A stretch of 64,000 nucleotides of DNA, taken from a virus. The notes below the pieces were generated by a model, which worked only from the letters and a program-made list of their open reading frames with translations, searched no databases and was not told the DNA's origin. The stretch spans positions 1 through 64,000 of the IMG/VR virus record IMGVR_UViG_3300012953_006686; one strand, given 5' to 3'. The position numbers and the translations under genes were made by a program. Shown piece after piece: positions 3,173 to 62,409 of this stretch. Each line of letters opens with the position of its first letter. The first letter of the stretch is position 1.

Positions 3173-4384
3173 CTATAAGTCTATTCGCAATTTAAATGTA
3201 TAATCCTGATCTTCATCTTTTAGAATCGGATTAGACAATGTTGCAACACCAATTAAGTTTTTAGAATCATCATATATTGCAACGCGAGATATATATACCT
3301 GCCTCTTAAAAGAGGCACTGAGGTTAGAGTAGCTTGAACTCACCACATTTGTTATCTCTAGCAGGGAATTTTCTTCATAAACTTGAGAAGATGTGAAATT
3401 GGTCTTTTTTTGTCCGTATTTTATATACGTTGGATTGTTAGAATAATTAACTTCTCCTGCCCGAGCATGTGCAAACATAGTAACAACTTGCGTATCAGTC
3501 TGCCCTTTAAAATTTAATTTAAATGATGCAGACATATAATTGGAAGTGTTGCCGCTACCGGCTGTAGATGCTTGGCTTACTCCATCATAAGCGCCCGCGC
3601 CCCAAAATTTCCATGAAGGCTTGCTGGCTGTAGTCGAGCCGGCTGTCATCGGAATTGTTTCGCCGTTTAAAGCCCACGATCCAGTCAGGCAGATGAAGCC
3701 CTCTTCATATAAAATAACGCCCGCCACCGAGCCGCTACCCGTACTGCCGGCAGGTCCAACTTGAACTAATTCTCCGTTTTGCTTAAGATCTTGCAGCTCT
3801 CCTATTATAGAGCCGGTAAAATACCACTTTAACGACACTGTTCCTGGCTTGATTCTGTTGCCGTAAAATATTGACGGAATTGATATTAAATTTATAGTCT
3901 GAACATTTTTGTCGCCGAACGAAGACGAAACTTTATAGTGCGCACTTCTTGCTCCATAGAAATTTAATTTATTTTTTAAAGCAACAAAATGTCTATTGAA
4001 TTCACCAGTAGCAGAAGAAGACGGTGTAGTTATATATTCTCGATATATCGAAGCAGACATAGGATAACTGCTACTTATTGTATCGCCATATTGAAATTCG
4101 TTTGTATATGTTGTGGCGCCCACTGTTTTAAAACTTGCGCCGGAACCCTGCTTGGTTATAAAAGGATAGCTAAAGTTATTAGATCCCGATAGCTTATCAA
4201 TATTATATTCATATAAGCTAATGTGTCCTGGCTCTATATTTAAAACCTGCGGGCTAAAAGCTCCAGATAATTCAGGTTGATTATTATAGTATACCTTCGA
4301 ATCAAATATAAGGAACTCACAACTAGGGTAAGCCCTCATTGTGTTCGCGACTACATCATTTGGACCGAATTTTCTAAGCGACAT
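3173..4384 (-). CDS. Virion structural protein (baseplate/fibre-attachment type)
   Basis: Ser/Gly/Thr-rich. C-terminal NYSNNPTY...YISRVAIYDDSKNLIGVATLSNPILK...FKLRIDL domain is shared with the adjacent gene. Located in the baseplate module. Confidence 0.7.
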   Translation of the reverse strand: MSLRKFGPNDVVANTMRAYPSCEFLIFDSKVYYNNQPELSGAFSPQVLNIEPGHISLYEYNIDKLSGSNNFSYPFITKQGSGASFKTVGATTYTNEFQYGDTISSSYPMSASIYREYITTPSSSATGEFNRHFVALKNKLNFYGARSAHYKVSSSFGDKNVQTINLISIPSIFYGNRIKPGTVSLKWYFTGSIIGELQDLKQNGELVQVGPAGSTGSGSVAGVILYEEGFICLTGSWALNGETIPMTAGSTTASKPSWKFWGAGAYDGVSQASTAGSGNTSNYMSASFKLNFKGQTDTQVVTMFAHARAGEVNYSNNPTYIKYGQKKTNFTSSQVYEENSLLEITNVVSSSYSNLSASFKRQVYISRVAIYDDSKNLIGVATLSNPILKDEDQDYTFKLRIDL

Positions 4385-4388
4385 TGCA

Positions 4389-5525
4389 TCAGTAATCTAG
4401 TCGCAATCGCAGTGTAAGCTCGTTTGTTGGATCTTTTCTTAATGGCTCTGAAAGTTTTGCGATTGCCAATAGCTCCTGGCTGGAATTATATAGACCAACC
4501 GTCGTAATGTATGCGACCGGTGGGTCACTAGCAACACTTTTCACTCTTATCTTGCTGCCAGTCAAATAAGTCGGATTAGAACTCATATTGCATCGATTAT
4601 GCGGAATCCTACAGAAGTAAATTGTTGAGTTAATCTCGGTCGTATTGTTGAAAGAGATGCTCTTGATTCGTTTTCGTAAAGAATCACAAGCGCCTGAAAT
4701 TGCTGAACCGGTGAACGTTTGTGCAATTGTCTGGGTACTATTATTTGGTCGATTGTAGCGGAAGCCGGTGGGTGCAGCCAATGGTTGGCTGGCAAAGGAG
4801 CCTGTAAAAACGCTAGACGAAAGGAAAATTATTCCTGCCTGATAAAATATCAACCCAACGGCGTTGCTATAATTAACCGGTGGCGGTGAGCTGATTGCAG
4901 AAGCGGAAGCCAAAGTTGTATTGTATAAAACACCATAGTCTCCTCCATAAGAGTTGGCTGTGCCTCCTGTGTCAGAAGCGCTTATGTCTTGAATTGTAAC
5001 AGTCGTTGCGGCGCCGCTAGTTGAAAATGGGTTTTTGAAATAATCTCTTGAGCCAGGTATGGCATATGACGCAGTTCCGAGCACCATACTGAAGGTGCCT
5101 TTCTTAATCTGGTCTTTGGTAATAAGTCTAGATAGATTGATAAAGAATCCGTTTAGCGCTTGCCCGCTCTTGTCTTGTGTTAGATCGGTCTCAAATGGCT
5201 GAATATCACCAGCAGAGCCGCTAGCGCCCAGCAATACCAACGACATCTGATTGTAGATATTTATTTTCTTTGAATTTTGAACTGCGGTTGAAGAACTCAA
5301 TACAGAATCTGCATGGTACCCCATTGTGATATCAAAAATGTGGTTTGCAGAAGAGCTTAGATATGGATAGTCATATACGCTTTGAAACATTCCGTGCGTG
5401 TAGTTCTTAATATTTTCATCTGCATACGTGCCGCTCACAACCGTTCCGGTTAGCGGAATAGATTCATACAACAATGTTTTTGTATTGGTAGCGTCGTCAG
5501 AATCCAAGGTTAACAACTGAGTCAT
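4389..5525 (-). CDS. Virion structural protein, paralog of 3173..4384
   Basis: C-terminal NMSSNPTY...YITTVGLYNSSQELLAIAKLSEPLRK...LRLRLDY, resembling the tail-collar/fibre attachment domain end. Confidence 0.7.
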   Translation of the reverse strand: MTQLLTLDSDDATNTKTLLYESIPLTGTVVSGTYADENIKNYTHGMFQSVYDYPYLSSSANHIFDITMGYHADSVLSSSTAVQNSKKINIYNQMSLVLLGASGSAGDIQPFETDLTQDKSGQALNGFFINLSRLITKDQIKKGTFSMVLGTASYAIPGSRDYFKNPFSTSGAATTVTIQDISASDTGGTANSYGGDYGVLYNTTLASASAISSPPPVNYSNAVGLIFYQAGIIFLSSSVFTGSFASQPLAAPTGFRYNRPNNSTQTIAQTFTGSAISGACDSLRKRIKSISFNNTTEINSTIYFCRIPHNRCNMSSNPTYLTGSKIRVKSVASDPPVAYITTVGLYNSSQELLAIAKLSEPLRKDPTNELTLRLRLDY

Positions 5526-9925: not shown

Positions 9926-9955
9926 TTTTATATCCTCTTATAAATAATTATATTT

Positions 9956-14177: not shown

Positions 14178-14207
14178 TTTTGTTCTCTATATAATTATGC
14201 TGATAAT

Positions 14208-41424: not shown

Positions 41425-41810
41425 TGGTTCTCCAGTATATTCGTGGTTGAATACCCCTCTATTCTATCAAAAAATTTCAGTTCTGTGCAATATTGCTCGC
41501 CTACAACAGTTTTACCTTTCCAATCTGAGCCTATAACCATAACATCTGGCTGCAGTTGTCTTATTTCTTGTTCTAACTGTTCTGTTGAATCAAAAACAAT
41601 AACTTCGTCAATATATTTAATGCAGTCTAAAGCAAACTTTCTATCTTCAATATTATTGAAGGGGCGATCGGAGCCTTTATCTTTTCTAACTTTCTCATCG
41701 GAGTCTATTCCTACAATTAATTGCTCACCAAAAGACTTGGCATACTTAAACATTTCGAAGTGGCCACGATGTAATATATCAAAACAACCATTTGTCCAAA
41801 CAATTTTCAT
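41421..41810 (-). CDS. hldC: Heptose-1-phosphate nucleotidyltransferase (RfaE domain II / HldC-like)
   Basis: WTNGCFDILHRGH, VGIDSD..V...KG..RP, G.DW and RIEGYSTT motifs. Confidence 0.8.
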   Translation of the reverse strand: MKIVWTNGCFDILHRGHFEMFKYAKSFGEQLIVGIDSDEKVRKDKGSDRPFNNIEDRKFALDCIKYIDEVIVFDSTEQLEQEIRQLQPDVMVIGSDWKGKTVVGEQYCTELKFFDRIEGYSTTNILENQ

Positions 41811-43719: not shown

Positions 43720-43728
43720 TTTATAATC

Positions 43729-52449: not shown

Positions 52450-53063
52450 AACTGAACTCTTTTACCGGCGCCGGCGTGTGGATACTTATCTAAACTATAC
52501 TTGTAGTACGTCACATATTCGTCGTTAACGCCTTCATAGGTCAGCTTTTCCTGACCCCAAGTCTCGCGCGTGTCCGTGCAGACAGACTTGCCGTTGTCTT
52601 CGATAATAAAATGAATCGGCAGCTTGTGGTTGCGAGAATACTTAATACATTCGTGAGCTACTCCTGTTTCAGAGGTCATATCGCCCATAAAGCAGTAAAC
52701 CCTGTTAGAGCCTCCGCGGCGCTTAATGTCTAAAGCAAGACCAGTCGCAATAGGGAGAACGCCCGTTACAATCCCCGAACACAATACTCGGTATTCACTG
52801 AAGCACAACGAAATAGAACGACCCTGCAGGATTGCTGCTTTTAGTTGATCTTTGGGAACACCCTTCAATAAACACTGATAATGGCTGCGCCAGGATCCCA
52901 GCACCCAATCATCGACTCCGATATTGTGTCTTTTGAATACATCAATCATTTGTTCTTCGTTACCGTGGTAAAGGTGCACAGGGGCACGAATCATAGCCGC
53001 ATCAAAACACGCGGCCATCTCTACCTCAAATTCAATTAACTCTTCTTTTGTGAGCATATACAC
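52446..53063 (-). CDS. ThDP-dependent enzyme, diphosphate-binding subunit (E1-alpha-like, short)
   Basis: HL..GNEE, WRSHY..L.KG, SGIV and the GD...ETG..HE...FIIEDN ThDP motif. Confidence 0.85.
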   Translation of the reverse strand: MYMLTKEELIEFEVEMAACFDAAMIRAPVHLYHGNEEQMIDVFKRHNIGVDDWVLGSWRSHYQCLLKGVPKDQLKAAILQGRSISLCFSEYRVLCSGIVTGVLPIATGLALDIKRRGGSNRVYCFMGDMTSETGVAHECIKYSRNHKLPIHFIIEDNGKSVCTDTRETWGQEKLTYEGVNDEYVTYYKYSLDKYPHAGAGKRVQF

Positions 53064-53071
53064 CCCCTAGG

Positions 53072-54580
53072 TTAATCGCCCAACAGCTTTCTTTTAAGCT
53101 TAATTTCTGTCATTTTTTCGATGCCCTGTCTTGTACCAAGTCCGAACTTCTTCTCTATCATATCAAGATATGCATCATTTTTATAGTATTTTGTGAAGGC
53201 TTCATCACGAAACTTAAGTACCTCTGCGGCAGAAATATGTTTAGTCGGAAGGGGGGATGTTTCATATGAGTGTTGAGAGTATCCCACATAGGTCTCTGGC
53301 AGCTCCCAGCCTTCTTTAAGGGCGTCTAAATAAAGTTTAGAGCCAGGGTATGCCATGGCAGAATAAAAGTTCGCAAACTCGCAATTAAGCTCCATTGACA
53401 TATCTAAAGTATCTTGCATGGTTTCAACAGTGTCTTCTGGGAGTCCAAAGATGTAGTTTCCAATGACGTTAATATCATAATCTTGAACTTTCTTTACCAA
53501 ATCTACAATGTTAACTTCTGTAAATCTACCTTTAACTACATCTTGTCGAACTACTTTATTGCCAGATTCAATTCCGAGCGCTAACCAATTAACGCCGGCG
53601 TTCTTTAGTGTTTCTAGATATTCTTCTTTAACGGTATCAATTCTAGCATACGCCCAAATATTAAAATCATATTTTCTTTCAATTATCAAATCACACAGCT
53701 TCATAAAGTGCTTTTTGTATAAAACAAACATCTCATCTGCAATCTTAACATTTTTAATTCCCATCTCAGCAATTTGATCAAATTCAGATATGATGTATTC
53801 TGGATCCCAAAATCTAAATTTGTTTCTGCCATAGTCCCAATTTTCAAGATTGTTGTTGCCAAACGGGGCATTAATACAACAAAAGCTACACTTAAACGGG
53901 CAACCTAAACTTGTATATAAAGAAGCAAATGGCTTTCTATCATCTCCGTTAGTCATAGCGTGCCAATTAGCAGTTCTATAATTACCCATCGGAAGTAAAT
54001 CCCAGGCCATGCCAGGTAATTCGTCCACCATTTCTTCTTGAGATATTAAAGGAGCAGGCTTTGTATAACAAATATTCCCGTCTTCCCTATACCACAAGCC
54101 TGGAACATTACGCAATTGTGAAGGTTCATCCATATTGACATTTAATAATCCGGCAATAGTATGCGGGCCTTCACCTTGGCAAACAAAATCTGCTATTTCA
54201 TCGTTCATGGTTTGTCGCGATACAGCAGAAGGATGCAGTCCGACTAACAATGTCTTGTACCCAGGATAATTATTTTTAAGCTCTTGTAAAAGGTAACGTG
54301 TTCCAATCATGTTCTGAGTTGAAGCAGATGGCTGTTGTCCATAAATTACTATAACCACAAGCCTGGGGTCATATAAACTAATGGCTTCTGCAGATTGAGC
54401 GGCATCAATTCTCATTGCCTCGCAATCTAAAACTCTTGTAGAATATCCATTCTTGCGCGCATTCTGCGCCAATAGAGCCGCCCAAATTGGCGGCTCGATA
54501 GCAGAATATTCTTTACTTAATTTTTGATAGATAATTGGGGCGCCGTTAGGGTGCACAAATAATACGTCTAATTTACTCAT
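53072..54580 (-). CDS. Cobalamin-dependent radical SAM protein (class B methyltransferase-like)
   Basis: N-terminal B12-binding domain (EPP.W, G.HPSA, GEG), GCPFKCSFC cluster motif, GIESG, IFGLP.DT and YPGS.L. Confidence 0.9.
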   Translation of the reverse strand: MSKLDVLFVHPNGAPIIYQKLSKEYSAIEPPIWAALLAQNARKNGYSTRVLDCEAMRIDAAQSAEAISLYDPRLVVIVIYGQQPSASTQNMIGTRYLLQELKNNYPGYKTLLVGLHPSAVSRQTMNDEIADFVCQGEGPHTIAGLLNVNMDEPSQLRNVPGLWYREDGNICYTKPAPLISQEEMVDELPGMAWDLLPMGNYRTANWHAMTNGDDRKPFASLYTSLGCPFKCSFCCINAPFGNNNLENWDYGRNKFRFWDPEYIISEFDQIAEMGIKNVKIADEMFVLYKKHFMKLCDLIIERKYDFNIWAYARIDTVKEEYLETLKNAGVNWLALGIESGNKVVRQDVVKGRFTEVNIVDLVKKVQDYDINVIGNYIFGLPEDTVETMQDTLDMSMELNCEFANFYSAMAYPGSKLYLDALKEGWELPETYVGYSQHSYETSPLPTKHISAAEVLKFRDEAFTKYYKNDAYLDMIEKKFGLGTRQGIEKMTEIKLKRKLLGD

Positions 54581-55565
54581 TTTTATCCCTTTGAAGATGT
54601 TTCATTTCATATGTCACTGCAGGCGATCCAAGTTTTTTTATAATTTCGTATTGCGCGGTTGGCGGCATTGAGCGGATATCATCACCAAGAGGTAAATATG
54701 CATATGGTGTATCGGTAGATTCAAATTGGGATTTCCACTTGCGAGACCACAATGTATCGGCTTTTTTCCACTGAGACTTTACATCTAAATTAATTTGTAG
54801 TTCTTCTTTCCAAGTGGCTTTCTTATAGGTTTTGTTGTATAATGGCTCATCATGAGTTATTTGCGCGTCATGAATAATGCCATGGCTCTCGTTATCGTTT
54901 TGTTGTGTGCACATCAGAATAGGTATACCTTCTAAAAGTTGGACATTAGCATCATCTGCCTGAGCGCGGATGGCGAGGTCGGTATAAGCAAGAGCAGTAC
55001 ACTCATAGTCGCAATTGATCCCACCTAATTGATCATAATATTCTCTATACATAATTGCACTATTTAAAATAAAATAGTCATCTGGAATGTGTTCACTTCC
55101 TATTCCGTTTCCTTCCTTATCTTTGTGAAAATTGATCTTATAATATTCATCAGTATAAACTTTTTCATTTTCAGTAAATTTATAAGTTACAATATTCTTT
55201 ATATCGTTCCCCATTTTATCTAACCGTGCGAGGGCAGTTTCGAGCCCATATGGTACAAAAAATCCATCATCAGATATCCAAGTAATAAGTTCACCTTCTG
55301 CTATAGCGGCGCCGATGGCGTGGGCGCGGACAGGACTTCCATAATCTTTAATTACTTTAAAATTAGGCGCTAACAATAAGGCAGGCTCAATCGCGTAAGG
55401 ATATGGAGTTATTAAAATTAATTCAAAAGAGCTGCTAGTAGAGCCTATAATAGAATTGTATATATCTGTCCAATACTCAGGTCTAATACCCGGCACAAGT
55501 ACAGATAGCTTGGGCTTATCCGATATAATATTATAATCTATTTTTTTAGGTGGCTGTAAGTACAT
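54573..55565 (-). CDS. GT-A fold (GT2-like) glycosyltransferase, copy 2
   Basis: LSVLVPGIR, FELILITP, KDYGSPVR, SDD, LGGINC and DLAIRAQ. Tandem duplicate of the upstream gene. Confidence 0.75.
   Translation of the reverse strand: MYLQPPKKIDYNIISDKPKLSVLVPGIRPEYWTDIYNSIIGSTSSSFELILITPYPYAIEPALLLAPNFKVIKDYGSPVRAHAIGAAIAEGELITWISDDGFFVPYGLETALARLDKMGNDIKNIVTYKFTENEKVYTDEYYKINFHKDKEGNGIGSEHIPDDYFILNSAIMYREYYDQLGGINCDYECTALAYTDLAIRAQADDANVQLLEGIPILMCTQQNDNESHGIIHDAQITHDEPLYNKTYKKATWKEELQINLDVKSQWKKADTLWSRKWKSQFESTDTPYAYLPLGDDIRSMPPTAQYEIIKKLGSPAVTYEMKHLQRDKNE
55126..55205. repeat. Near-identical ~80-bp segment shared by the tandem GT paralogs (second copy 56137-56216)
   Basis: A 53-nt exact match (55144-55196 = 56155-56207) inside an ~80-nt block with two mismatches; offset 1011 bp. 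Confidence 0.85.
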
Positions 55566-55577
55566 GCTCTATTATGA

Positions 55578-56576
55578 TTATGATAATTTTGTCAAGGCTG
55601 AAAGTTTTTCGTTCAAGGTTGCCAGTTTTGCGCTAGCGTGTTTTACGATTTTTGCAGCCATCGCGATGCCGATAGTGTGATATGAATACATTCCGTCTGT
55701 TCCGTAAGCTGTTGCATGCTCAATTCTTTTTTTGATAATTGGCTCATATTTACGGGGCCATGCAAGAGGAGCAGATTTCCAATTGTTTAACTTTAAATTA
55801 ATTTTTATATTATCTCGCCACGTTGACGATTTATAGGTTTTAGCGTAAAGAGGCTCATCATGGGTTTGCTGGGCACTTTCTACGTGCGTGTGTCTATTAT
55901 CTCCAGGCGTAAACTGACCACACATTAAAATAGGGGGACCATCGACCAATTCTACACGTGCTCCATCAAATTGGGCACGAATAGCAAAGTCAGTATATGC
56001 CATGGCAGTTCCTTCATAAGAGCAGTCAATTCCTCCTAATTCTTCATAATATGCGCGATGCATAAGGCAACAATTAAAAATATAATAATCATCTGGAATA
56101 TGCTCGCTTCCTATTCCATTTCCTTCTTTATCTTGATGAAAATTGATCTTATAGTATTCATCAGTATAAACTTTTTCATTTTCAGTAAATTTATAAGTTA
56201 CAATATTTTTTATATCACCCCCCATTTTGCCTAACTGTGCAAGAGCGGTTTCTAATCCTAATGGTGCTATAACTCCATCATCAGCGATCCAAGTAATAAA
56301 TTTTCCTTCTGCCAAAGAGGCGCCGATGGCATGCGCTCGGACTGGTGATCCATAATCTTTAACAATCTTAATATTTGTACACCACCAAAACCAAGGCGGA
56401 ATATCATAGCCATTTGGAGTTATAATGATAAGTTCAAATGATCGAGATGTTGAAGCTACTAGAGAGTTATAAACGTTAGTCCACTTTTCAGGGTGTATTG
56501 CCGGCATAATTATAGACAACTCGGGCTTGTCTTTGGTTATATTGTACTCTTCATGTGTGGGGGGTCGTAAATACAT
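55578..56576 (-). CDS. GT-A fold (GT2-like) glycosyltransferase, copy 1
   Basis: LSIIMPAIH, FELIIITP, KDYGSPVR, ADD, LGGIDC and DFAIRAQ. Confidence 0.75.
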   Translation of the reverse strand: MYLRPPTHEEYNITKDKPELSIIMPAIHPEKWTNVYNSLVASTSRSFELIIITPNGYDIPPWFWWCTNIKIVKDYGSPVRAHAIGASLAEGKFITWIADDGVIAPLGLETALAQLGKMGGDIKNIVTYKFTENEKVYTDEYYKINFHQDKEGNGIGSEHIPDDYYIFNCCLMHRAYYEELGGIDCSYEGTAMAYTDFAIRAQFDGARVELVDGPPILMCGQFTPGDNRHTHVESAQQTHDEPLYAKTYKSSTWRDNIKINLKLNNWKSAPLAWPRKYEPIIKKRIEHATAYGTDGMYSYHTIGIAMAAKIVKHASAKLATLNEKLSALTKLS

Positions 56577-56584
56577 TTTCTATC

Positions 56585-57517
56585 TTAATAATTTGCATAC
56601 CAAGGAGATTCAATGATGCTGTAAGCTTTAATAAGCTGACCAATACCATCATCTAAGTTATATTTGCACTCAAATCCCTTATCATAAAATTTTTGACTAC
56701 TAACAATATAATCACGTGTATCAGGATCGGAAGTAAATTCTGCTTTAATAATCTCAAGCGGAAGGTGTTCCTTAATCTTTTGTGCTAGCTGAAGCTTGTT
56801 CATGTTAATAGCATCGTTGCCTACATTGTAAGTTTCATTCTTGCACTCTTCCCAATTGTTAATCACAAACATAAATGCGCGACAAACATCCTGTAGGTGT
56901 ACATAATTGCGCATAAATTCACACTCATAAAGTACCAATACACGTTCGCGGAGAGCCTTAAGAACAAAATTGTTAACCAGCAAATCGGTTCGCATACGAG
57001 AACCGGGACCAAACACAGTCGCTAATCTAAATGTTACATAATTATCAATATTTTTAAATTCATTTTCTGCCGCTACTTTTGTTTTTCCATAAAGGGTAAT
57101 TGGATTAAGAGGAGATTGTTCAGTGCACACAGAACCATCGACACTAACTCCATAGCCAGAATTAGTACAAGGGTAAATCACCTTTTGTTCTGGTGTTTTG
57201 TTTTTGGCAATCCAGGCGTTAACTCCATGATTGATCTCAACGGCACCTCTCTTATCTCTATCACAAAGAGGAAACCCCACTAATGCCGCCAAAGGAATGA
57301 TTATATCAGCTTTTGGCATGTGCTCGTGCAAAAACTCTAGATTTACAACGTCACCCTTAATAAAAGTAAAATTAGGATTAATAGTATATCGTAACAACGA
57401 TGTGGCATCATACATTAGGTTATCAATGATTGTAACTTCATGACCTTCTTTCAAAAGATGCTCGGTTAATTCGCTACCAATGTAGCCGGCGCCGCCGGTA
57501 ATAAGAACTTTAGACAT
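56585..57517 (-). CDS. NAD-dependent nucleotide-sugar epimerase/dehydratase/reductase (SDR)
   Basis: TGGAGYIGS, LAALVG.P.C, YGKTK and RLATVFG...RMR.DLLVN.F. Confidence 0.88.
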   Translation of the reverse strand: MSKVLITGGAGYIGSELTEHLLKEGHEVTIIDNLMYDATSLLRYTINPNFTFIKGDVVNLEFLHEHMPKADIIIPLAALVGFPLCDRDKRGAVEINHGVNAWIAKNKTPEQKVIYPCTNSGYGVSVDGSVCTEQSPLNPITLYGKTKVAAENEFKNIDNYVTFRLATVFGPGSRMRTDLLVNNFVLKALRERVLVLYECEFMRNYVHLQDVCRAFMFVINNWEECKNETYNVGNDAINMNKLQLAQKIKEHLPLEIIKAEFTSDPDTRDYIVSSQKFYDKGFECKYNLDDGIGQLIKAYSIIESPWYANY

Positions 57518-57814
57518 TTACAACTCCAATTTTCCTGTTAAGGTGTCTTTAAGCATAACCCAGTCGCATGCTTTAGCCCACAGAGGTCTTGAAAATGCTG
57601 CTGGCTCATTCTTTTCAAACACAAAATGACCAGTCCACGCAAAAGGATAAACCACAAATGGAGCTGCTAACAGTAACAACCATGTTTGAGTATATATTAC
57701 CGCACTAATGAACATAATTGTAGCCGCTTGCCCTAAAATATGCATGCGCCGACACCATTTGTTTTGATGTAAAGTAAGATAATATTGATAATATTCACTA
57801 AATGTCATTTCCAA
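57518..57814 (-). CDS. DUF962/Mpo1-like membrane protein
   Basis: YL..HQN..CRRMH..G, hydrophobic core and AW.GHF.FEKN.PA.F..P. Confidence 0.8.
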   Translation of the reverse strand: MEMTFSEYYQYYLTLHQNKWCRRMHILGQAATIMFISAVIYTQTWLLLLAAPFVVYPFAWTGHFVFEKNEPAAFSRPLWAKACDWVMLKDTLTGKLEL

Positions 57815-58212
57815 CTAATCTCCCAATCTTTAAAATCAGCTGCGAGACAATCAATCTTATAATCTTTCCTACCGCCCATAATCTCTTGGATACAATTTTT
57901 GGCAGTGTTTCTAATTCCATTTAAACCGTGTGTTAGTTCTAAATTATTACCATCTTTGATACCTTTGCGATAATTGGATTCATTGTGCCAGATGTGCAAA
58001 TTCATCTGAGATAGAACTACAATTGCTCGGATTGTCTCTGCTGTAATTCCTTCACTTTGATCCAACAATAATTGGATATCGTGGGTGATATCAGCGATTT
58101 CTTGCGCATATTCTGTTTTGTGTTCAGGTATAAATACCTCTTTTAATTGGGCGATCGATAATCTATCTATCAGCTCCGATAATGTTGGTAAATACTTTCT
58201 ACTAGTGTCCAT
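57805..58212 (-). CDS. Hypothetical helical protein (DUF4254-like) common in glycan loci
   Basis: ELIDRLSI..LK, N..IWH.E...R and N..RN..K..I pattern. Confidence 0.55.
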   Translation of the reverse strand: MDTSRKYLPTLSELIDRLSIAQLKEVFIPEHKTEYAQEIADITHDIQLLLDQSEGITAETIRAIVVLSQMNLHIWHNESNYRKGIKDGNNLELTHGLNGIRNTAKNCIQEIMGGRKDYKIDCLAADFKDWEISWK

Positions 58213-58221: not shown

Positions 58222-59871
58222 TTATATAAATTGTCTAAAATATGGCTCATACTTTTTGAAGTTTGCTTCACCGAACACTTCTTTATGTTTAAAGAATGTA
58301 CCGGCCTCTTCTTGACCTCGTTCTTTAATGTGCTCGTTTGATGTTGATAAGCCTTCAGAATTATAATAATATAATCCCAATGGAATGTCAACCTTTTTAA
58401 ATTGTGCTCCTGATTCTACCATTCTTAAAAACATATCCCAGTCGCCTGCGTATGCTAAATCTTCATTAAAAAAGCCTGCCTTGTCGTGAATGTTTTTTTT
58501 CCACATAGGCATTGGTCCTGGCAGGCATTTGATCATATTTTCTCTGGAAAATTTATTCCTAGAGTGTTCATAAAAATTTCCATTTGATGAGTTATCTTCA
58601 AACGTTTCATTTGGCTTAGTTGTTTGATAGCAATCAGTATAAACCAAATCTATATCGCTAGAATAATGTAAATGTTTGGCAAGAGTTTCTAAATAGTGTG
58701 GTGAATGTCTATCGTCCACACAAGCCTGAGCAATAAATTCTCCAGTGGCTATTTTTATTGCCATATTCTCTGTTTCCATAACTGTGGCTCTATAGTCGAG
58801 CTTTTTATAAACTACATTTTTATGGTTCTTCATAAATTCTTCAATGTATTGTTCTTCGTTCTCTGGCGAATTTGCATTAATAATGATCAATTCAGATTGT
58901 TCAAAAATGGTCTGCTTTTGCATGTCTTCTAGAAAGCCTTGAATGTATTTTTCACCAGCATATAGAGGACAAAAAATAGTGACTTTTGGAAGATTGACTT
59001 TTCCATAAAATTCTACTTTATTATCGTCAATTAGTCCAAACCACTTCTGTAAAAGTGTGTTATTGTTTTCTCTAATAAAATCTAATAATTCTCTGCCTTT
59101 TAGTTTAAAGTAATCTTCACTAGCTGCACCAATAAGATTATTAGTTATCAACTTACATCCCAAGATACGAGCCTCAATTGAAAGCCTGTTATATGTCTCA
59201 AGCCATTGAGGAAAAAATACCAAATGTTGAACGCGCGCAAGATTAACCACAAAACTTTCAAATGGTTGTGGTTCTAAATATTCAAACGGTAAATTGTTTT
59301 TCTGACAAAAACCAATAGCAGCAGGCATGCCTTTATTTTTATTATTCGATCTTAAAAGAGCATACTTAATGCTCTTGGGCGTGTCTATATTATTCTCTAA
59401 GACTGATAATTGTTCTTCCGTCCAAATATTTCCGCTTAAACTAACAATGTTGTCTAATAGCAGATTCTTTTGAACTACGGAAGCGTGCTTCTTGCTTTGA
59501 CACATTACTGCTTGAGCACCTTTATAGAAAAACTTATTAATTATTTGCTGTTCAGGTGCTAAAAAATCTTTATATAGCGATGGATTATTAGAAGCAACGT
59601 ACTTGTGATCGTGTTCTAAAATCGCATATCTATATTTATCAGATAGTGCATATTTAAATGCTTCAGGTAACATAAAAAAGTTTGCTACTATAAAAAAACT
59701 ATCTGTACTGTTATTAAGCAGTTGAGGGGTTACTTCAGATGACTTTACTGTAGTCACATTATATTTTTTACGCAGAAGATTAATGAGAGCATCATTACAC
59801 AACTCCGCTCCCCCTCTTATCTCATTTACAAAAAAATCAGATATAAAAACAATGTTAGTCATATTCAACAA
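58222..59871 (-). CDS. Two-domain glycosyltransferase (GT-B-like N-terminus + GT2 C-terminus)
   Basis: N-terminal SDFF....GGAE and P.W.ET..R..IEA...GC. C-terminal VTIFCPLY, ELIII...S, GEFIA...DD, G.F.E...AGDWDMFLR. Confidence 0.82.
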   Translation of the reverse strand: MLNMTNIVFISDFFVNEIRGGAELCNDALINLLRKKYNVTTVKSSEVTPQLLNNSTDSFFIVANFFMLPEAFKYALSDKYRYAILEHDHKYVASNNPSLYKDFLAPEQQIINKFFYKGAQAVMCQSKKHASVVQKNLLLDNIVSLSGNIWTEEQLSVLENNIDTPKSIKYALLRSNNKNKGMPAAIGFCQKNNLPFEYLEPQPFESFVVNLARVQHLVFFPQWLETYNRLSIEARILGCKLITNNLIGAASEDYFKLKGRELLDFIRENNNTLLQKWFGLIDDNKVEFYGKVNLPKVTIFCPLYAGEKYIQGFLEDMQKQTIFEQSELIIINANSPENEEQYIEEFMKNHKNVVYKKLDYRATVMETENMAIKIATGEFIAQACVDDRHSPHYLETLAKHLHYSSDIDLVYTDCYQTTKPNETFEDNSSNGNFYEHSRNKFSRENMIKCLPGPMPMWKKNIHDKAGFFNEDLAYAGDWDMFLRMVESGAQFKKVDIPLGLYYYNSEGLSTSNEHIKERGQEEAGTFFKHKEVFGEANFKKYEPYFRQFI

Positions 59872-61123
59872 CTTGATCTAAGATGTCTCGCCAAGCTTCT
59901 TCTTCTTTTGTTTGAATAAATTCGATTAAACTGTCAACAAAAAGTGCATTTTGTTTTTGTTCAGAAAACCGGTCATGAACGGTGGTGGCATATTCGCAAG
60001 AATTTGCCGCTACGCTATCTTCTATATTATCCTTTAAATCATTATAGCAATTTCGCAATTGTTCCTTTGCAGAAGATTCTCTTGCATATGCCCACATAGA
60101 TTCTTTAATTAAAACGGCGTCCCATACAACTTCATCTGGTACAGGGGAAATATCATATGCTACATTATAAAAATTATCTCTTCCTTTTTCATCAACAAGA
60201 AAATCAAGCTGACCCGACCAGCCGGTGCATACCACTGGAAGTCCGCTATAACAAGCCTCAAAAATAGGAAGTCCAAAGCCTTCTCCGTGAGGCAAAGCCA
60301 ATAAAGCTGAAATTTTAGGATGAGTGTATAGCGAATGCATCTCATCGTCTTCCATATCTCCGTGTAAAAGATAAACTTTACAAGTTTTTTCTCCGAGTGT
60401 CTTTAAAAAATTAGATAGCTCGCTATGAACTTGCTCTCGATCAATTAAGCTATTTTTGGCTAAGTTGGTCTTTAATACCAAGCCTACTTTTTCATCTCTA
60501 AATTCTTCAACAAACCACTTAACAGTATTAGGAATATTTTTTCGTGGACCGAATTGAGCTACAGTCAAAAAATTGATTTCATAGTCCAAGTCTATATCTA
60601 CTTTTGGTAAATCATTAAAGATCTTAGTTGGATAGTTTACAGTATCAATCTGTGTTGTCGTTCGTAATTCAAATTGTTGCTGCGGATTTTCTCTAGTAGA
60701 TGCTGTATAAACAGTTCCTTCAAAAACGTTTTTTGAATGATTAGAAACTACAATAATTCGATTCATTTCGTTTGCTTTTTGTATCCATTGATGTGATACT
60801 TTTGTAGTTTCAATTCCGGCTGTATATCCAATATTTATAGGTGCTAGCGACTCCCATTCGTTAGGGATTGTAACTTGAAGCGATAAATCAAATTGACCAC
60901 CTTGTTGTATATAGGCTATTGTTTTTTCGACACAACGATCGATCCAAATACGCTCAACGTCACCTCCTGACATCCACGATGTAGAACCCCACTGCAGTGG
61001 TTGGATATAAATATCAAACAAGTCAGGTCTCGATCTAAGAGCCCTAAAGGCAAATCTAGATTGCTCTCCATACCCTGATCGCGTCAGCAATGGGGCTTTT
61101 AAAAGAATCTTTTTCTTCATCAT
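59855..61123 (-). CDS. GT4-family glycosyltransferase
   Basis: SGYG...R, RKN and GEGFGLPIFEA..GLPV..T.WSG..DF. The start at 61123 follows GGAGG and overlaps the upstream TGA. Confidence 0.88.
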   Translation of the reverse strand: MMKKKILLKAPLLTRSGYGEQSRFAFRALRSRPDLFDIYIQPLQWGSTSWMSGGDVERIWIDRCVEKTIAYIQQGGQFDLSLQVTIPNEWESLAPINIGYTAGIETTKVSHQWIQKANEMNRIIVVSNHSKNVFEGTVYTASTRENPQQQFELRTTTQIDTVNYPTKIFNDLPKVDIDLDYEINFLTVAQFGPRKNIPNTVKWFVEEFRDEKVGLVLKTNLAKNSLIDREQVHSELSNFLKTLGEKTCKVYLLHGDMEDDEMHSLYTHPKISALLALPHGEGFGLPIFEACYSGLPVVCTGWSGQLDFLVDEKGRDNFYNVAYDISPVPDEVVWDAVLIKESMWAYARESSAKEQLRNCYNDLKDNIEDSVAANSCEYATTVHDRFSEQKQNALFVDSLIEFIQTKEEEAWRDILDQVVEYD

Positions 61124-62409
61124 GCCACCTCCATAAAGTGCCATTTCTTGTATCCTTTTCGTGTTTCCCAAGAGCCATATTTCTTTACTACATTGTCCAT
61201 TATTTCTACCCATTGTCTTTCAAATTTTTCAAAATTATAATTCTCAGCCACGTGCTTCATTCCATTTGTAGACATTTTATTATATGATTTTTTAGATGCC
61301 TTTAAAGCAGAAGTGAGGGCTTTTTCAAAATCTTCTTGTGAAATACGATCTTCATAAATATATGGAACCTCTAGTGAACCAATAACTGCCTTAGAAGCCG
61401 GCTGAATTCCCCAGCCGAACCAATTTTCGCCATCAGTTACTTGTTCTTGCAATCCTCCTGTCATATTGACAATAATTGGAGTTCCGCATGCTAAAGACTC
61501 TAGCGTTCCTAGTCCAAAACCTTCTGCATCTGAGATATTAATCGTGTAGTCAGCCGCATTATACATTGAGGCTAGATCCGATGCGTCTACCTTATTAGTA
61601 GAAAGTAAAATCTGTCCCTTATTAACCCCTAAATGATCAATTAAATGTGGTAGGTCTTGTCCGTGAGGATCTCTTGCATCTGTGTGCATTAGCAAGGTCG
61701 CTTTGTCGTGCCCAACTTTATCAAGCCATTCCTTAAACCACCAAAGCAAAGTGCCACTTTGTTTGCGGCGGGCATTTCGATTGTTCCAGAAGAATAATTT
61801 TTTATTTTTATTTTGTACTTCTTTAAATGTGTTATCATTATAAATTTTCTCTCTTAAAGCTGAAGCACGGGCCTTATCTTCAATTGTTTTAAATTTATAA
61901 AATACTGACGAATTCACAGCATGTGGGACATAATGATGTGGTACTTCGGGGCTTACATTGTGTAGTATATCGTATGTAACCTTAGAAATTGCAGCAATTT
62001 CATCAGTTGAGCGGTACCATCTTCCATTAAAATGGGGATACGGTTTATTATCCCAAACATGATAATAGACCATTGGGACATTAGCTCTAACTTCATTTTC
62101 TATTTCCCAAAGCCATCCATAAAATCTTGGATCAGTCATAAACCATAAAACATCTGGCTTTTCTTTTTGTAAAATTGATCTGATCATTTCATGATTACCA
62201 TACCCATCAACCGGATAGATAATCCAATCATCTTGCCATTGTTCCATTCTTTGCGGGCTATAATCTTGATGTTTCATGGCTCCTCCAAGACTAATAAATT
62301 GATAGCGACCTGTTTTTAATAACGCCTCAATAAAATATTTTGTCTGGGTACCCACACCAGATGGAGATAGCGGGTGATCTGATAAAGTCAGAATCTTTGT
62401 CTTTTTCAT
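61120..62409 (-). CDS. GT4-family glycosyltransferase
   Basis: SD.P..PSGV, NRN.RRK and YNAAD......AEGFGL..LESLACGTPII...TGGL.EQ. Confidence 0.9.
   Translation of the reverse strand: MKKTKILTLSDHPLSPSGVGTQTKYFIEALLKTGRYQFISLGGAMKHQDYSPQRMEQWQDDWIIYPVDGYGNHEMIRSILQKEKPDVLWFMTDPRFYGWLWEIENEVRANVPMVYYHVWDNKPYPHFNGRWYRSTDEIAAISKVTYDILHNVSPEVPHHYVPHAVNSSVFYKFKTIEDKARASALREKIYNDNTFKEVQNKNKKLFFWNNRNARRKQSGTLLWWFKEWLDKVGHDKATLLMHTDARDPHGQDLPHLIDHLGVNKGQILLSTNKVDASDLASMYNAADYTINISDAEGFGLGTLESLACGTPIIVNMTGGLQEQVTDGENWFGWGIQPASKAVIGSLEVPYIYEDRISQEDFEKALTSALKASKKSYNKMSTNGMKHVAENYNFEKFERQWVEIMDNVVKKYGSWETRKGYKKWHFMEVA

What the first reader, a model, noticed from the sequence alone, without database searches (positions are those of the whole stretch)
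3173..62409. Candidate phage-encoded virion glycosylation system: self-contained glycan factory next to structural proteins loaded with an [ST]-[GAS]-S motif
Seen: a 21.7-kb locus with nine glycosyltransferase genes and donor-synthesis enzymes is co-oriented with the baseplate module and separated from it only by the sigma factor and four small genes. It has no Wzx/Wzy/ABC exporter, ligase or polyprenyl-phosphate initiating transferase, and the GTs look soluble. Seen: several structural proteins are full of SGS/TGS/SAS/TAS/SSS/TSS tripeptides, while the enzymes have almost none. Established: some mycobacteriophages and giant eukaryotic viruses glycosylate virion proteins with their own GTs. 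Inference: the acceptor is cytoplasmic and most plausibly the virion, decorated at many Ser/Thr sequons with a complex modified glycan for shielding, adhesion or stability.
Basis: partly seen in the sequence, partly recalled or inferred. Interest (0 to 1): 0.85.

Follow-up and report, generated by a model that had tools for sequence, protein, structure and literature searches.

The report
Glycan island tracks virion serine motif
In an abundant group of large marine phages, a swappable block of sugar-building genes occurs in exactly those genomes whose baseplate and fibre proteins carry a conserved Ser/Thr-Gly/Ala-Ser motif, which suggests the phage sugar-coats its own outer parts, although no chemistry has been measured.

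Summary
Both observations are real. The window is the first 64 kb of a 93.7-kb fragment of a roughly 190-kb marine myovirus. Positions 40715-62409 hold a glycan locus. The tripeptide [ST]-[GA]-S is enriched about 4-fold in four baseplate-distal proteins. The enrichment is directional: Thr at position 3 shows none.

The glycan block sits behind a conserved sigma70-type promoter. The baseplate genes carry a different, late-type promoter.

The locus has a fixed frame: nuclease, GT4a, GT4b, a variable island of 0-19 kb, small genes, then a gp55-like sigma factor.
- Among 33 relatives, the 26 with an island show motif enrichment of 2.8-6.7x.
- The 7 without an island show none (0.4-1.9x), although they keep GT4a/GT4b and orthologues of all the motif-rich proteins.
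- At sites that are invariant SGS/SSS/TGS in island-bearing lineages, island-less orthologues have Asp, Glu or Lys. The motif is therefore probably exposed and not structural.

In the cultured relative immuto, published nucleoside analysis found dA, dC, dT and fdPreQ1, with no sugar adduct reported.

The best reading is phage-encoded O-glycosylation of peripheral virion proteins (about 0.55). It is unproven chemically, and only two independent evolutionary transitions support it. Two other first-reader notes of this scan cover the same stretch.

The parts
63202..63232 (-). Sigma70-type promoter (TTGACA-N17-TATAAT with an extended -10) about 20 nt upstream of the nuclease gene. It heads the glycan block.
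   Evidence: The same element lies upstream of the orthologous nuclease in about 50 relatives and in G001/G002.
62417..63181 (-). PD-(D/E)XK nuclease. It is the first gene of the conserved frame nuclease-GT4a-GT4b.
   Evidence: Pfam PF12705, E 1.1e-18. The same gene order occurs in immuto, Mel-JY01, G001, G002, G016, G018, G019, G034, G035, G037 and G045.
61120..62409 (-). GT4a, a conserved GT-B glycosyltransferase with an intact EX7E motif.
   Evidence: Pfam Glycos_transf_1 E 1e-13 and phrog_2170 E 2.6e-29. Found in 529 IMG/VR contigs; the 80 listed are 59-76% identical. Alignment A2 shows E296/E304 invariant. Best PDB match is chlorovirus B736L (3oy2), E 1.8e-7.
59855..61213 (-). GT4b, the second conserved GT4. 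Its true start is probably near 61120. It is fused to the GT2 in some relatives.
   Evidence: Pfam. Alignment A3 keeps E311/E319; the first invariant column is P41, so the called ORF is over-extended at its N-terminus. Fusions of 647-698 aa occur in L125, L144, L151, L156, L184 and L190.
58222..59871 (-). GT2 of 549 aa, the first gene of the variable island.
   Evidence: Pfam Glycos_transf_2 E 2.8e-11. Partial homologues occur in G001, G002 and G045.
40715..58212 (-). Rest of the variable glycan island: further GTs, the GDP-mannose dehydratase branch, aminotransferase, methyltransferase, the PfkB/cytidylyltransferase/HAD/cupin set, a split ThDP enzyme, a B12 radical-SAM enzyme and SDRs.
   Evidence: Pfam and NCBIfam. 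Most genes lack homologues in G001/G002. The whole island is absent from G018, G019 and G037, where GT4b abuts the small-gene block.
39218..39943 (-). gp55-like late sigma factor. It ends the early-type block that also holds the small genes 38931-39239, 39882-40271, 40222-40488 and 40488-40712.
   Evidence: phrog_234 'late sigma transcription factor', E 0.0074 over nearly full length. 81-84% identical in G001/G002. Always downstream of the island site.
25482..27655 (-). Baseplate wedge genes: gp25-like (27290-27655) and gp6-like (25482-27278). Neither is motif-enriched. A late-type promoter lies upstream of the gp25-like gene.
   Evidence: PHROGs phrog_261/43 and phrog_6/219. Motif n=0 in both. 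Promoter motif reported.
23464..25482 (-). Motif-rich 672-aa baseplate-peripheral protein, a chain of Ig/FN3-like beta-sandwich domains.
   Evidence: 15 motif sites, z 7.8. AF2 pLDDT 88.4, pTM 0.84. Foldseek matches FN3/Ig arrays, S-layer proteins and adhesins. The family has 955 clusters at 50% identity, with the motif 4.1x enriched (z 54.6) across 119 representatives.
14208..23474 (-). Motif-rich giant 3088-aa protein with a ConA-like lectin domain.
   Evidence: 45 motif sites, z 8.6. Laminin_G_3, E 7.6e-9. Orthologues of 3.3-4.1 kaa are enriched in island-bearing relatives and not in island-less ones.
4389..5525 (-). Motif-rich 378-aa distal protein.
   Evidence: 10 sites, z 3.4. The G018 orthologue (43% identity) has 0 sites.
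3173..4384 (-). Motif-rich 403-aa distal protein, the last gene of the structural module.
   Evidence: 14 sites, z 6.2. Motif residues are among the invariant columns of alignment A1. The family has 3458 proteins at E<=1e-5. The G018 orthologue (38% identity) has 1 site. The AF2 monomer model failed at pLDDT 34.6.

Best explanation
This is a phage-encoded, cytoplasmic protein O-glycosylation system aimed at the peripheral parts of the virion.

SHOWN.
- A fixed genomic frame (nuclease, GT4a, GT4b, an insertion site, small genes, a gp55-like sigma factor) carries a highly variable glycan island at the insertion site.
- The island holds at least one further glycosyltransferase plus sugar-nucleotide and tailoring enzymes.
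- A directional motif, hydrophobic-[ST]-[GA]-S-hydrophobic, is conserved at about 10-15 sites per protein. It occurs in the Ig-like baseplate-peripheral protein, the giant lectin-domain protein and two distal proteins.
- Motif and island occur together and are lost together.

INFERRED.
- The block is made from an early sigma70-type promoter, so enzymes and activated sugars would accumulate first.
- When late structural proteins appear, one or both hydroxyls of the motif would receive a sugar.
- The island's GTs and tailoring enzymes (methyl, amino, branched-chain, and in relatives sulfate, pyruvate or CMP-sugars) would then build a lineage-specific glycan.
- That glycan would coat the baseplate periphery and fibres.
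- Which enzyme reads the motif is open. GT4a/GT4b are the only universally conserved GTs, but they persist without the motif.
- The likely benefit is masking or tuning of the adsorption apparatus. Candidates are protease or grazer resistance, reduced non-productive sticking, and altered host range. This is speculation.
For: (1) The motif is specific. It is enriched 3.4-5.5x, with Thr at position 3 and non-small residues at position 2 disfavoured. The result is robust to local shuffling and codons are mixed. Across 119 family representatives it is 4.1x enriched (z 54.6), against 1.06x for the Thr variant.

(2) It is restricted to peripheral proteins, genome-wide, in the complete relatives G001 and G002. 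MCP, sheath, tube and portal are not enriched.

(3) It is absent from T4 and P-SSM4, and only one P-SSM2 protein is enriched.

(4) Co-variation. In 33 contigs that hold both GT4a and the 672-aa homologue, the 7 island-less contigs have obs/exp 0.43-1.85. The 26 island-bearing contigs have 2.8-6.65, with no overlap. The Thr variant shows no relation. Island absence was checked gene by gene in G018, G019 and G037.

(5) In G018 the orthologues of all four motif-rich window proteins carry 1, 0, 2 and 0 sites.

(6) At sites invariant in island-bearing lineages (SGS 21/22, SSS 21/22, TGS 22/22), island-less orthologues have TDA, KSN, KRK, SDE, KAY or IGT. The positions accept charge, so the motif is not needed for folding.

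(7) Distant cultured relatives with island-type loci also have motif-rich tail proteins: Flavobacterium phage immuto (6 proteins, tail spike z 10.7) and Microcystis phage Mel-JY01 (9 proteins).

(8) Island content turns over completely between lineages, as expected for an exposed glycan.

(9) The AF2 model places the motifs in loops and at strand ends of Ig-like domains.

(10) DNA is an unlikely acceptor. Nucleoside analysis of immuto virion DNA found dA, dC, dT and fdPreQ1, with no sugar adduct reported (bioRxiv 10.1101/2023.04.13.536721).
Against: - There is no chemical evidence of any glycan on any protein.
- On the gp6 tree, the co-variation rests on about two independent transitions: one nested marine clade and LR756508 (quick tree, SH-aLRT 84 for the clade). 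A joint change of host could in principle remove both features.
- GT4a and GT4b, the only GTs shared by all island-bearing genomes, are retained intact where the motif is gone. No single island gene is common to all islands. The enzyme that reads the motif is therefore unidentified.
- RM378 has only the GT4 pair yet shows weak enrichment in two proteins.
- The block appears early-transcribed, which would suit host-surface remodelling equally well.
- Truly private motif sites are no more enriched than the Thr control, so there is no sign of rapid sequon gain.
- Similar sugar clusters in cyanophages are conventionally read as host-surface modifiers (PMC7824862, PMC12801897).
Confidence: 0.55

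Rival explanations
1. The glycan locus remodels the host envelope (LPS, capsule or S-layer glycan) during infection, using host initiating transferases and flippases. This would serve, for example, to block superinfection or stop progeny sticking to debris. The virion motif is an unrelated property of the fibres. Motif and island were lost together only because that lineage moved to a different host.
For: - This is the standard reading of comparable clusters in large cyanophages (PMC7824862; PMC12801897).
- The block follows an early sigma70-type promoter.
- O-antigen GTs are also soluble, so the lack of TM segments does not discriminate.
- Hypervariable content resembles O-antigen or capsule loci.
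- Only about two independent transitions support the co-variation.
Against: - It does not explain why roughly 10-15 near-invariant Ser/Thr sites per protein, in four different virion proteins, decay to charged residues exactly where the island is missing.
- The frame and motif span phages of Bacteroidota, Cyanobacteria and unknown marine hosts, whose envelope acceptors differ. The phage's own proteins are the conserved candidate acceptor.
- No phage-encoded initiating transferase, flippase, polymerase or ligase occurs in complete genomes.
Confidence: 0.2
2. The motif is a structural or assembly feature of this clade's fibre and Ig-like domains, such as a tight turn or small-residue packing. 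It has nothing to do with sugars, and the co-occurrence with the island is phylogenetic coincidence.
For: - Most of the enrichment comes from positionally conserved sites.
- Hydrophobic residues flank the motif at -1 and +3.
- In the immuto tail spike the motif sits in tandem [ST]AS[YF]A hexa- and nonapeptide repeats, and next to a recurring GDGSxLT motif seen in several fibre-like proteins of this clade.
- The 403-aa protein would not fold as a monomer in AF2, as is typical of intertwined fibres.
Against: - Orthologues in the island-less clade keep the same proteins but put D, E or K at the invariant positions. The motif is therefore dispensable for the fold and probably exposed.
- T4 baseplate and fibre proteins show no such enrichment.
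- The strict exclusion of Thr at position 3 and of Asn or Gly/Ala at flanking positions is hard to derive from packing alone.
- In the well-modelled 672-aa protein the sites lie in varied loop and strand-edge contexts of globular Ig-like domains, not in one repeated structural position.
Confidence: 0.1
3. The sugars go onto phage DNA as base hypermodification, or into another non-protein product such as a small molecule or secondary metabolite. Alternatively, the motif marks a different modification, such as phosphorylation by the phage-encoded kinase.
For: - The locus sits next to a nuclease in an early-type block, as DNA-modifying genes often do.
- Phage GTs that glycosylate DNA are well known (PMC13326640).
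- The contig encodes a kinase-like protein beyond the window.
Against: - Nucleoside analysis of immuto virion DNA found dA, dC, dT and fdPreQ1 in place of dG, with no sugar adduct reported.
- No thymidylate-synthase-family hydroxylase or hydroxymethylase occurs in G001, G002 or Mel-JY01.
- Islands with sulfotransferase, pyruvyl transferase and CMP-sugar synthetase look like glycan decoration rather than base modification.
- A non-protein product would not explain the coupling to a protein motif.
Confidence: 0.07

Closest known systems
Mycobacteriophage virion glycosylation (Freeman et al. 2023, Cell Host Microbe; known here only through citing papers PMC12619734 and PMC12801897)
   Same: Phage-encoded GTs located outside the structural module are proposed to act in the cytoplasm on the phage's own virion proteins. 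No export machinery is involved.
   Different: In those phages the glycans sit on C-terminal extensions of the capsid and tail-tube subunits. Here capsid and tube are not enriched. The candidate targets are baseplate-peripheral and fibre proteins, at dispersed internal [ST][GA]S sites. The locus is a hypervariable island of up to 19 kb with its own sugar-nucleotide pathways. The hosts are marine Gram-negative lineages.
Serine-rich-repeat adhesin glycosylation by GtfA/GtfB (GT4 pair, PDB 5e9t and 4pqg)
   Same: Two adjacent GT4 genes, cytoplasmic O-glycosylation of Ser within S-[A/x]-S contexts, and later elongation by further GTs.
   Different: Sequence similarity to GtfA is only marginal (E 0.02-0.07). 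Both phage GT4s keep the catalytic EX7E motif, whereas GtfB (from my own knowledge, not checked here) is a non-catalytic partner. The targets are folded Ig-like domains with dispersed sites, not long Ser-rich repeats (immuto's tail spike partly excepted). The GT4 pair persists without the motif.
Giant-virus glycosylation gene clusters (chlorovirus, mimivirus fibrils) and chlorovirus GT B736L (PDB 3oy2)
   Same: A virus-encoded, host-independent sugar-nucleotide and GT toolkit whose glycans decorate outer virion structures. GT4a's best solved relative is chlorovirus B736L (E 1.8e-7).
   Different: Those are eukaryotic viruses with capsid N-glycans or fibril glycans and different sequons. The function of B736L itself is unproven. 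The similarity here covers only 150 residues of the C-terminal domain.
Cyanophage 'LPS / cell-wall modification' sugar clusters (P-SSM2 type; PMC7824862, PMC12801897)
   Same: Same enzyme classes (SDR epimerase/dehydratases, cupins, PfkB kinase, HIGH-type nucleotidyltransferase, several GT families), no exporter, and polymorphism between related phages.
   Different: P-SSM2 and P-SSM4 have no GT4a homologue and lack the set of motif-rich virion proteins (1 and 0 proteins). Here the island is coupled to a protein motif. Those clusters have no experimentally defined acceptor either.
Flagellin O-glycosylation islands (Maf/PseE type) and bacterial O-antigen or capsule loci
   Same: A hypervariable cassette between conserved flanks. 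One minimal island (G016) carries a CMP-sugar synthetase, an HpcH-type aldolase and a weak MptE/Maf-like match.
   Different: The Maf-like match is below threshold (E 0.002). The window's own island holds no nonulosonic-acid synthase. The acceptor is a phage protein rather than flagellin or lipid.

Membership tests
Phage-encoded virion protein O-glycosylation | Glycan covalently attached to virion proteins | not testable with these tools
   Needs mass spectrometry or glycan staining of virions. None was found in the literature for immuto, Mel-JY01 or RM378.
Phage-encoded virion protein O-glycosylation | Phage-encoded GTs with no membrane-linked assembly or export step | tested here: met
   There are 4 solid and 2 weak GTs, none with TM-like segments. 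No polytopic membrane protein other than a probable tape measure occurs in complete relatives.
Phage-encoded virion protein O-glycosylation | Acceptor feature in virion proteins that depends on the presence of the GT genes | tested here: met
   Motif obs/exp is 2.8-6.65 in 26 island-bearing relatives and 0.43-1.85 in 7 island-less relatives. Charged replacements occur at invariant sites. This rests on about two independent transitions.
SRRP GtfA/GtfB-type O-GlcNAc priming pair | One catalytic GT4 plus one catalytically dead GT4-like partner | tested here: not met
   Both GT4a and GT4b keep an invariant EX7E motif. Similarity to GtfA is only E 0.02-0.07.
SRRP GtfA/GtfB-type O-GlcNAc priming pair | Presence of the pair goes with Ser-rich acceptor sites | tested here: not met
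   The island-less clade keeps intact GT4a and GT4b but has lost the motif.
Phage DNA glycosylation (T4 alpha/beta-GT; 5hmC or 5hoC arabinosylation) | Thymidylate-synthase-family enzyme that makes a hydroxylated or hydroxymethylated pyrimidine | tested here: not met
   PF00303 is absent from G001, G002 and Mel-JY01. Only immuto has a ThyA.
Phage DNA glycosylation (T4 alpha/beta-GT; 5hmC or 5hoC arabinosylation) | Glycosylated nucleosides in virion DNA | tested here: not met
   Published LC-UV-MS/MS of immuto_2-6A DNA found dA, dC, dT and fdPreQ1 (10.1101/2023.04.13.536721). This is literature evidence for a relative, not for this phage.
Host LPS or capsule modification cluster (cyanophage P-SSM2 type) | Sugar-nucleotide enzymes plus several GT families, polymorphic between related phages | tested here: met
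   The enzyme classes match the description in PMC7824862.
Host LPS or capsule modification cluster (cyanophage P-SSM2 type) | Product ends on a host envelope glycolipid or polysaccharide | not testable with these tools
   No acceptor has been shown for any such cluster. The coupling to a virion-protein motif argues for another acceptor here.
T4-type contractile-tail baseplate module | Adjacent gp25-like and gp6-like wedge proteins | tested here: met
   phrog_261/43 and phrog_6/219. Synteny with immuto, Mel-JY01 and LR756508.

The most novel reading that the evidence does not exclude
A globally abundant lineage of roughly 190-kb marine myoviruses, with cultured relatives on Flavobacterium and Microcystis, carries a sequon-directed, phage-autonomous O-glycosylation system. 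A fixed insertion site behind two conserved GT4 genes holds interchangeable glycan cassettes. Their chemistries include amino, methyl, branched-chain, sulfated, pyruvylated and CMP-activated sugars. The cassettes would give the baseplate periphery and fibres a lineage-specific sugar coat at conserved [ST]-[GA]-S sites, in effect virion 'serotypes'. Lineages that lose the cassette erase the sequons.
Probability: 0.5. Interest if true: 0.85.

Novelty: new variant of a known kind. Interest (0 to 1): 0.72.

Why it matters
Glycosylated phage virions are so far documented mainly in mycobacteriophages. The large sugar-gene clusters of marine phages have been read, without experiment, as host-surface or DNA modifiers.

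If this reading is right, it gives three things:
- a defined candidate sequon;
- a defined set of target proteins;
- a natural presence/absence contrast.

All three occur in a very abundant marine phage group: the 672-aa family has 955 clusters at 50% identity, and GT4a occurs in 529 IMG/VR contigs.

The system would be testable at once in cultured phages (immuto, Mel-JY01, RM378).

It would also change how auxiliary 'LPS genes' in viromes are interpreted. It would suggest that glycan coats on adsorption organelles form a diversifying layer in phage-host and phage-grazer interactions.

Tried and rejected
- AF2 of the 403-aa protein from a shallow alignment failed (pLDDT 34.6), so no structural context is available for the densest target.
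- The AF2 model of the 672-aa protein is good, but coordinates are not returned. Solvent exposure could only be inferred from secondary structure and from charged substitutions.
- The T4 late promoter TATAAATA is not enriched (10 found against 8.4 expected). The exact string ATAATTAT marks four baseplate-module genes in the window but is not conserved as an exact string in G001/G002. A degenerate motif had to be used instead.
- No convincing terminator lies between the glycan block and the baseplate.
- GT4a relatives in prokaryote genomes were all short MAG contigs 49-72% identical to the phage gene. I read them as mis-binned phage DNA; no cellular gene context was obtained.
- The fibre-module search against cultured phages found nothing useful. 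PDB sequence searches of the giant protein found nothing, and those of immuto's spike hit only its YadA-like head.
- Five island ORFs stayed unassigned in Pfam, NCBIfam and PHROGs.
The motif-poor family member P0230 was traced through IMG/VR instead.
- Complex prediction was not used. GT4a-GT4b binding is not claimed, and enzyme-substrate pairs are poor candidates for that tool.
- The idea that GT4a/GT4b alone define the system was rejected, because they persist in the motif-less clade.
- The first hint of a link came from five GT4-bearing genomes against T4-like controls. This was set aside as phylogenetically confounded until the within-clade contrast was found.
- The careful tree search did not finish. 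The tree cited is the quick IQ-TREE run.

Full report
WHAT THE WINDOW IS

The window is the first 64 kb of a 93.7-kb IMG/VR viral record that CheckV rates 51% complete. All genes lie on the minus strand. GC is about 38%.

Complete relatives are 191-203 kb, three of them with direct terminal repeats. The nearest cultured phages are Microcystis phage Mel-JY01, Flavobacterium phage vB_FspM_immuto and Rhodothermus phage RM378.
- The gp6-like protein is 27-30% identical to its counterparts in Mel-JY01 and immuto.
- The capsid, terminase, portal and sheath proteins of the complete relatives G001 and G002 are 30-40% identical to those of RM378.

The lineage is very abundant in marine metagenomes.
- The 403-aa protein has 3458 relatives at E <= 1e-5.
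- The 672-aa protein has 955 clusters at 50% identity.
- GT4a occurs in 529 IMG/VR contigs.

CHECKING THE OBSERVATION: THE GLYCAN LOCUS

The 21.7-kb locus at 40715-62409 is real. It encodes:
- GDP-mannose 4,6-dehydratase;
- three further SDR enzymes;
- a DegT-family aminotransferase;
- a methyltransferase;
- a PfkB kinase, cytidylyltransferase, HAD phosphatase and cupin set;
- a UDP-glucose-dehydrogenase-like protein;
- a split ThDP E1-like pair;
- a B12 radical-SAM enzyme;
- glycosyltransferases.

I can confirm four GTs firmly and two weakly, not nine. Five ORFs remain unassigned.

No GT has a TM-like segment. Complete relatives encode no polytopic membrane protein apart from a probable tape measure.

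CHECKING THE OBSERVATION: THE MOTIF

The motif enrichment is real and sharper than described. Only four proteins carry it: 3173-4384, 4389-5525, 14208-23474 and 23464-25482.
- Pooled, they hold 84 sites against 22.6 expected (z 12.8).
- The excess survives shuffling within 15-residue blocks (z 12.3).

The motif is directional:

| Pattern | Observed/expected |
|---|---|
| [ST]GS | 5.5x |
| [ST]AS | 4.5x |
| [ST]SS | 2.1x |
| [ST][GAS]T | 0.67x |
| [ST][non-small]S | 0.65x |

All Ser, Thr, Gly and Ala codon families are used at the three positions. The signal is therefore in the protein, not in the DNA. Hydrophobic residues are favoured at -1 and +3.

Most structural proteins are not enriched. 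These include the gp6-like, gp25-like, 2343-aa and two 888-aa proteins, and the capsid, sheath, tube and portal proteins of complete relatives.

The 'motif-free' enzymes are simply Ser-poor, with 9 sites seen against about 7 expected.

WHAT THE TARGET PROTEINS ARE

The 672-aa protein follows the gp25-like and gp6-like wedge genes. With a 119-sequence alignment it folds confidently in AF2 (pLDDT 88.4, pTM 0.84). The model is a chain of Ig/FN3-like beta-sandwich domains. Foldseek matches cytokine-receptor FN3 tandems, S-layer arrays, complement MG domains and adhesins. Its motif sites lie in loops and at strand ends.

The 3088-aa protein has a ConA-like lectin domain. The two small distal proteins have no known family. 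The 403-aa protein did not fold as a monomer.

In G002, further motif-rich proteins lie between the portal and capsid genes. One of them carries a GDGSxLT motif that recurs in fibre-like proteins of this clade.

CONSERVATION

In relatives, the same four protein families are the most enriched proteins genome-wide. Motif residues are better conserved than other Ser residues: 0.70 against 0.48. They are among the invariant columns of the 403-aa family.

Across 119 representatives of the 672-aa family, [ST][GA]S is 4.1x enriched (z 54.6). The Thr, Asn and reversed variants sit at 0.6-1.1x.

The excess comes from about 40 alignable sites, each shared by at least 10% of members. Truly private sites are no more enriched than the Thr control.

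The promoters differ.
- Upstream of the nuclease gene that heads the block there is a canonical TTGACA-N17-TATAAT promoter. It lies at 63232-63202 in the window, and also in about 50 relatives and in G001 and G002.
- The gp25-like gene in 61 relatives, other baseplate genes, and the G001 capsid gene carry instead a motif without a -35 element, [AT]TA[TA]TTA[TC], just before the ribosome-binding site.
- A gp55-like sigma factor is the last sizeable gene of the early-type block.

Adjacency of the locus and the baseplate is therefore an early/late boundary. These are pattern matches, not transcript data.

Absence of exporters and soluble-looking GTs equally describes cyanophage sugar clusters, which the literature attributes to host-surface modification (PMC7824862; PMC12801897).

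THE DECISIVE COMPARISON

The locus has a fixed frame: p231, PD-(D/E)XK nuclease, GT4a, GT4b, an insertion site, three small genes, the gp55-like sigma factor, one more small gene, then the baseplate hub genes. The insertion site holds nothing in some genomes, 5-7 kb in others and 19 kb in the window.

A motif-free member of the 672-aa family (P0230) led to contig G018. There GT4b directly abuts the small-gene block. Orthologues of all four motif-rich window proteins are present at 31-43% identity, and they carry 1, 0, 2 and 0 sites.

I then took all 33 contigs that hold both GT4a and the 672-aa homologue, and used the distance between the two genes as a proxy for island size.

| GT4a-to-672 distance | Contigs | Motif obs/exp (672-aa homologue plus adjoining giant protein) |
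|---|---|---|
| 13-17 kb (no island) | 7 | 0.43-1.85 (mean 1.22) |
| 19-40 kb (island) | 26 | 2.8-6.65 (means 4.9 at 18-26 kb and 4.2 above 26 kb) |

There is no overlap between the two groups. The Thr variant shows no relation to distance (rho 0.08).

Gene-by-gene inspection confirmed that the island is absent in G018, G019 and G037. It confirmed islands in G016, G034, G035 and G045.

On a gp6 tree the seven island-less contigs form one nested clade. Immuto and Mel-JY01 (island and motif present) and LR756508 (no strongly motif-rich protein, GT4a present, no GT4b homologue found) lie outside the marine group. At least two transitions are needed (quick tree, clade support 84).

At sites that are invariant in island-bearing lineages (SGS 21/22, SSS 21/22, TGS 22/22), the island-less orthologues carry TDA, KSN, KRK, SDE, KAY or IGT. 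Positions that accept Asp, Glu and Lys are almost certainly exposed. The motif is therefore not needed for the fold. Its conservation depends on something that only island-bearing genomes have.

OTHER CONTROLS

Counting proteins with at least 5 [ST][GA]S sites and z of at least 4:

| Genome | Motif-rich proteins |
|---|---|
| Mel-JY01 | 9 |
| immuto | 6 |
| G002 | 6 |
| G001 | 5 |
| RM378 | 2 |
| P-SSM2 | 1 |
| P-SSM4 | 0 |
| LR756508 | 0 |

- T4 baseplate, fibre, head and tail proteins show no enrichment; the highest z is 2.4.
- P-SSM2, which has a large unrelated sugar cluster, and P-SSM4 have no GT4a homologue.
- RM378 has the GT4 pair only, and its two enriched proteins are weakly enriched.

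THE ISLANDS

Island content turns over completely between lineages.
- Most window island genes lack homologues in G001 and G002.
- The minimal island of G016 holds a third GT4, a GMD homologue, a CMP-sugar synthetase-type cytidylyltransferase and an HpcH-type aldolase.
- The minimal island of G035 holds a GT4-GT2 fusion, LicD, a methyltransferase, a polysaccharide pyruvyl transferase, a sulfotransferase and an APS kinase.
- In each island whose first gene could be assigned to a family, that gene, directly after GT4b, is a GT. These are the window, G016, G035 and G045; the first gene of the G034 island was not assigned.
- In several genomes GT4b is fused to that GT.

A conserved frame with a swappable glycan cassette is the pattern of loci that make exposed, diversifying glycans.

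ACCEPTORS OTHER THAN PROTEIN

Published LC-UV-MS/MS of immuto virion DNA found dA, dC, dT and fdPreQ1 replacing dG. No sugar adduct is reported in the passages read (10.1101/2023.04.13.536721).

G001, G002 and Mel-JY01 lack a thymidylate-synthase-family enzyme. Known DNA-glycosylation routes start from such an enzyme (PMC13326640). DNA is therefore an unlikely acceptor.

INTERPRETATION

The most economical account is that island-encoded enzymes build a glycan on the [ST][GA]S sites of peripheral virion proteins, with or without GT4a/GT4b. Once the island is lost, the sites drift.

Shown:
- the motif and its specificity;
- its restriction to peripheral proteins;
- the frame-and-island architecture;
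- the co-variation of motif and island;
- the charged substitutions in island-less orthologues.

Inferred:
- the covalent modification itself;
- the timing of expression;
- the biological benefit;
- the enzyme that reads the motif.

Open problems:
- GT4a and GT4b are the only GTs common to all island-bearing genomes, yet they persist, highly conserved, without the motif.
- No island gene is universal.
- The evolutionary evidence amounts to about two independent events, so a host shift that removed both features cannot be excluded.

I put the glycosylation reading at about 0.55, host-surface remodelling at 0.2, a purely structural motif at 0.1, and DNA or other products at 0.07.

COMPARISON WITH KNOWN SYSTEMS

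It works like mycobacteriophage virion glycosylation and like giant-virus glycan clusters. It differs in its targets (baseplate periphery and fibres, not capsid or tube termini), in having a short internal candidate sequon, and in the cassette architecture.

It resembles the GtfA/GtfB system of serine-rich adhesins in having two adjacent GT4 genes and Ser-x-Ser sites. It fails the defining tests for that family: both GT4s look catalytic, and the pair does not track the motif.

Its enzyme inventory matches the cyanophage 'LPS' clusters, whose acceptors are also unknown. This result suggests that some of those clusters deserve the same test.

LIMITS

- No coordinates were available for solvent-accessibility calculations.
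- One AF2 job failed.
- The careful tree search did not finish.
- Promoter assignments are pattern-based.

Noticed in passing
window 63202-63232 (-); 27656-27686, 35763-35825, 14178-14207, 9926-9955 (-): Two promoter classes are visible. A canonical TTGACA-N17-TATAAT element lies before the nuclease/GT block, and before replication-type genes in G001/G002. A motif without a -35 element, [AT]TA[TA]TTA[TC], lies 8-15 nt before the SD of baseplate genes and the G001 capsid gene. This fits a gp55-like late sigma factor.
   Followed up: partly
L104:35287-38448 (immuto 'tail spike', 1053 aa): This protein carries 60 [ST][GAS]S sites. Many sit in tandem [ST]-A-S-[YF]-A hexa- and nonapeptide repeats, interspersed with GDGSxLTGI motifs. 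It ends in a YadA/Hep_Hag-like head (PDB 7o23, E 6e-10). The repeat region has no Pfam family.
   Followed up: partly
L125, L144, L145, L151, L156, L184, L190 (ORFs of 647-698 aa after GT4a); G002 43808-45751: In several relatives GT4b is fused to the following GT2. This Rosetta-stone link suggests that the two act in sequence.
   Followed up: no
L106:7442-8933 (Mel-JY01 83441-84932): The GT4a homologue of Mel-JY01 is annotated as two ORFs (191 and 303 aa) in different frames. This may be a real split at the GT-B domain boundary, a frameshift or a sequencing error. The phage still has nine motif-rich proteins.
   Followed up: no
L367:13107-15237 (-) (G035 island): A minimal island encodes a sulfotransferase, an APS kinase, a polysaccharide pyruvyl transferase, LicD and a methyltransferase. 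This implies a sulfated and pyruvylated phage-made glycan, an unusual chemistry for a phage.
   Followed up: partly
L365:13589-15899 (-) (G016 island): This island carries a CMP-sugar-type cytidylyltransferase, an HpcH/HpaI aldolase and a sub-threshold MptE/Maf-like match (E 0.002). The combination is reminiscent of ulosonic-acid flagellin glycosylation islands.
   Followed up: no
G002 125755-127772 and 130712-132895; G001 190420-191088: Additional motif-rich small proteins (256 aa with 16 sites) and a 727-aa fibre-like protein lie between the portal and capsid genes. They may be head or neck fibres that share the motif.
   Followed up: partly
P-SSM2 (NC_006883) 18953-20746: One 597-aa P-SSM2 protein has 20 [ST][GA]S sites (z 7.0), although the phage lacks a GT4a homologue. 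It is the only such protein in that genome and was not identified.
   Followed up: no
L222-L232 (genome contigs): Contigs encoding close GT4a relatives (49-72% identity) are filed in MAGs named Woesearchaeota, Pelagibacter, Flavobacteriales, Maricaulis, Neomarinimicrobiota and WOR-3. They are almost certainly mis-binned phage DNA, so these bins should not be used for host assignment.
   Followed up: no
window 51311-51850, 52446-53063, 53072-54580: A split ThDP E1-like pair lies beside a B12 radical-SAM enzyme inside the island. It has no homologues in G001 or G002. The arrangement is consistent with a branched-chain, C-methylated sugar, as another first-stage note proposed.
   Followed up: partly
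G000 beyond the window, about 65.5-66.4 kb: The intergenic sequence upstream of the ORF at 65827-66435 appears to hold tRNA genes, judged by eye from the sequence and not checked with a tRNA finder. ARAGORN found none inside the window.
   Followed up: no
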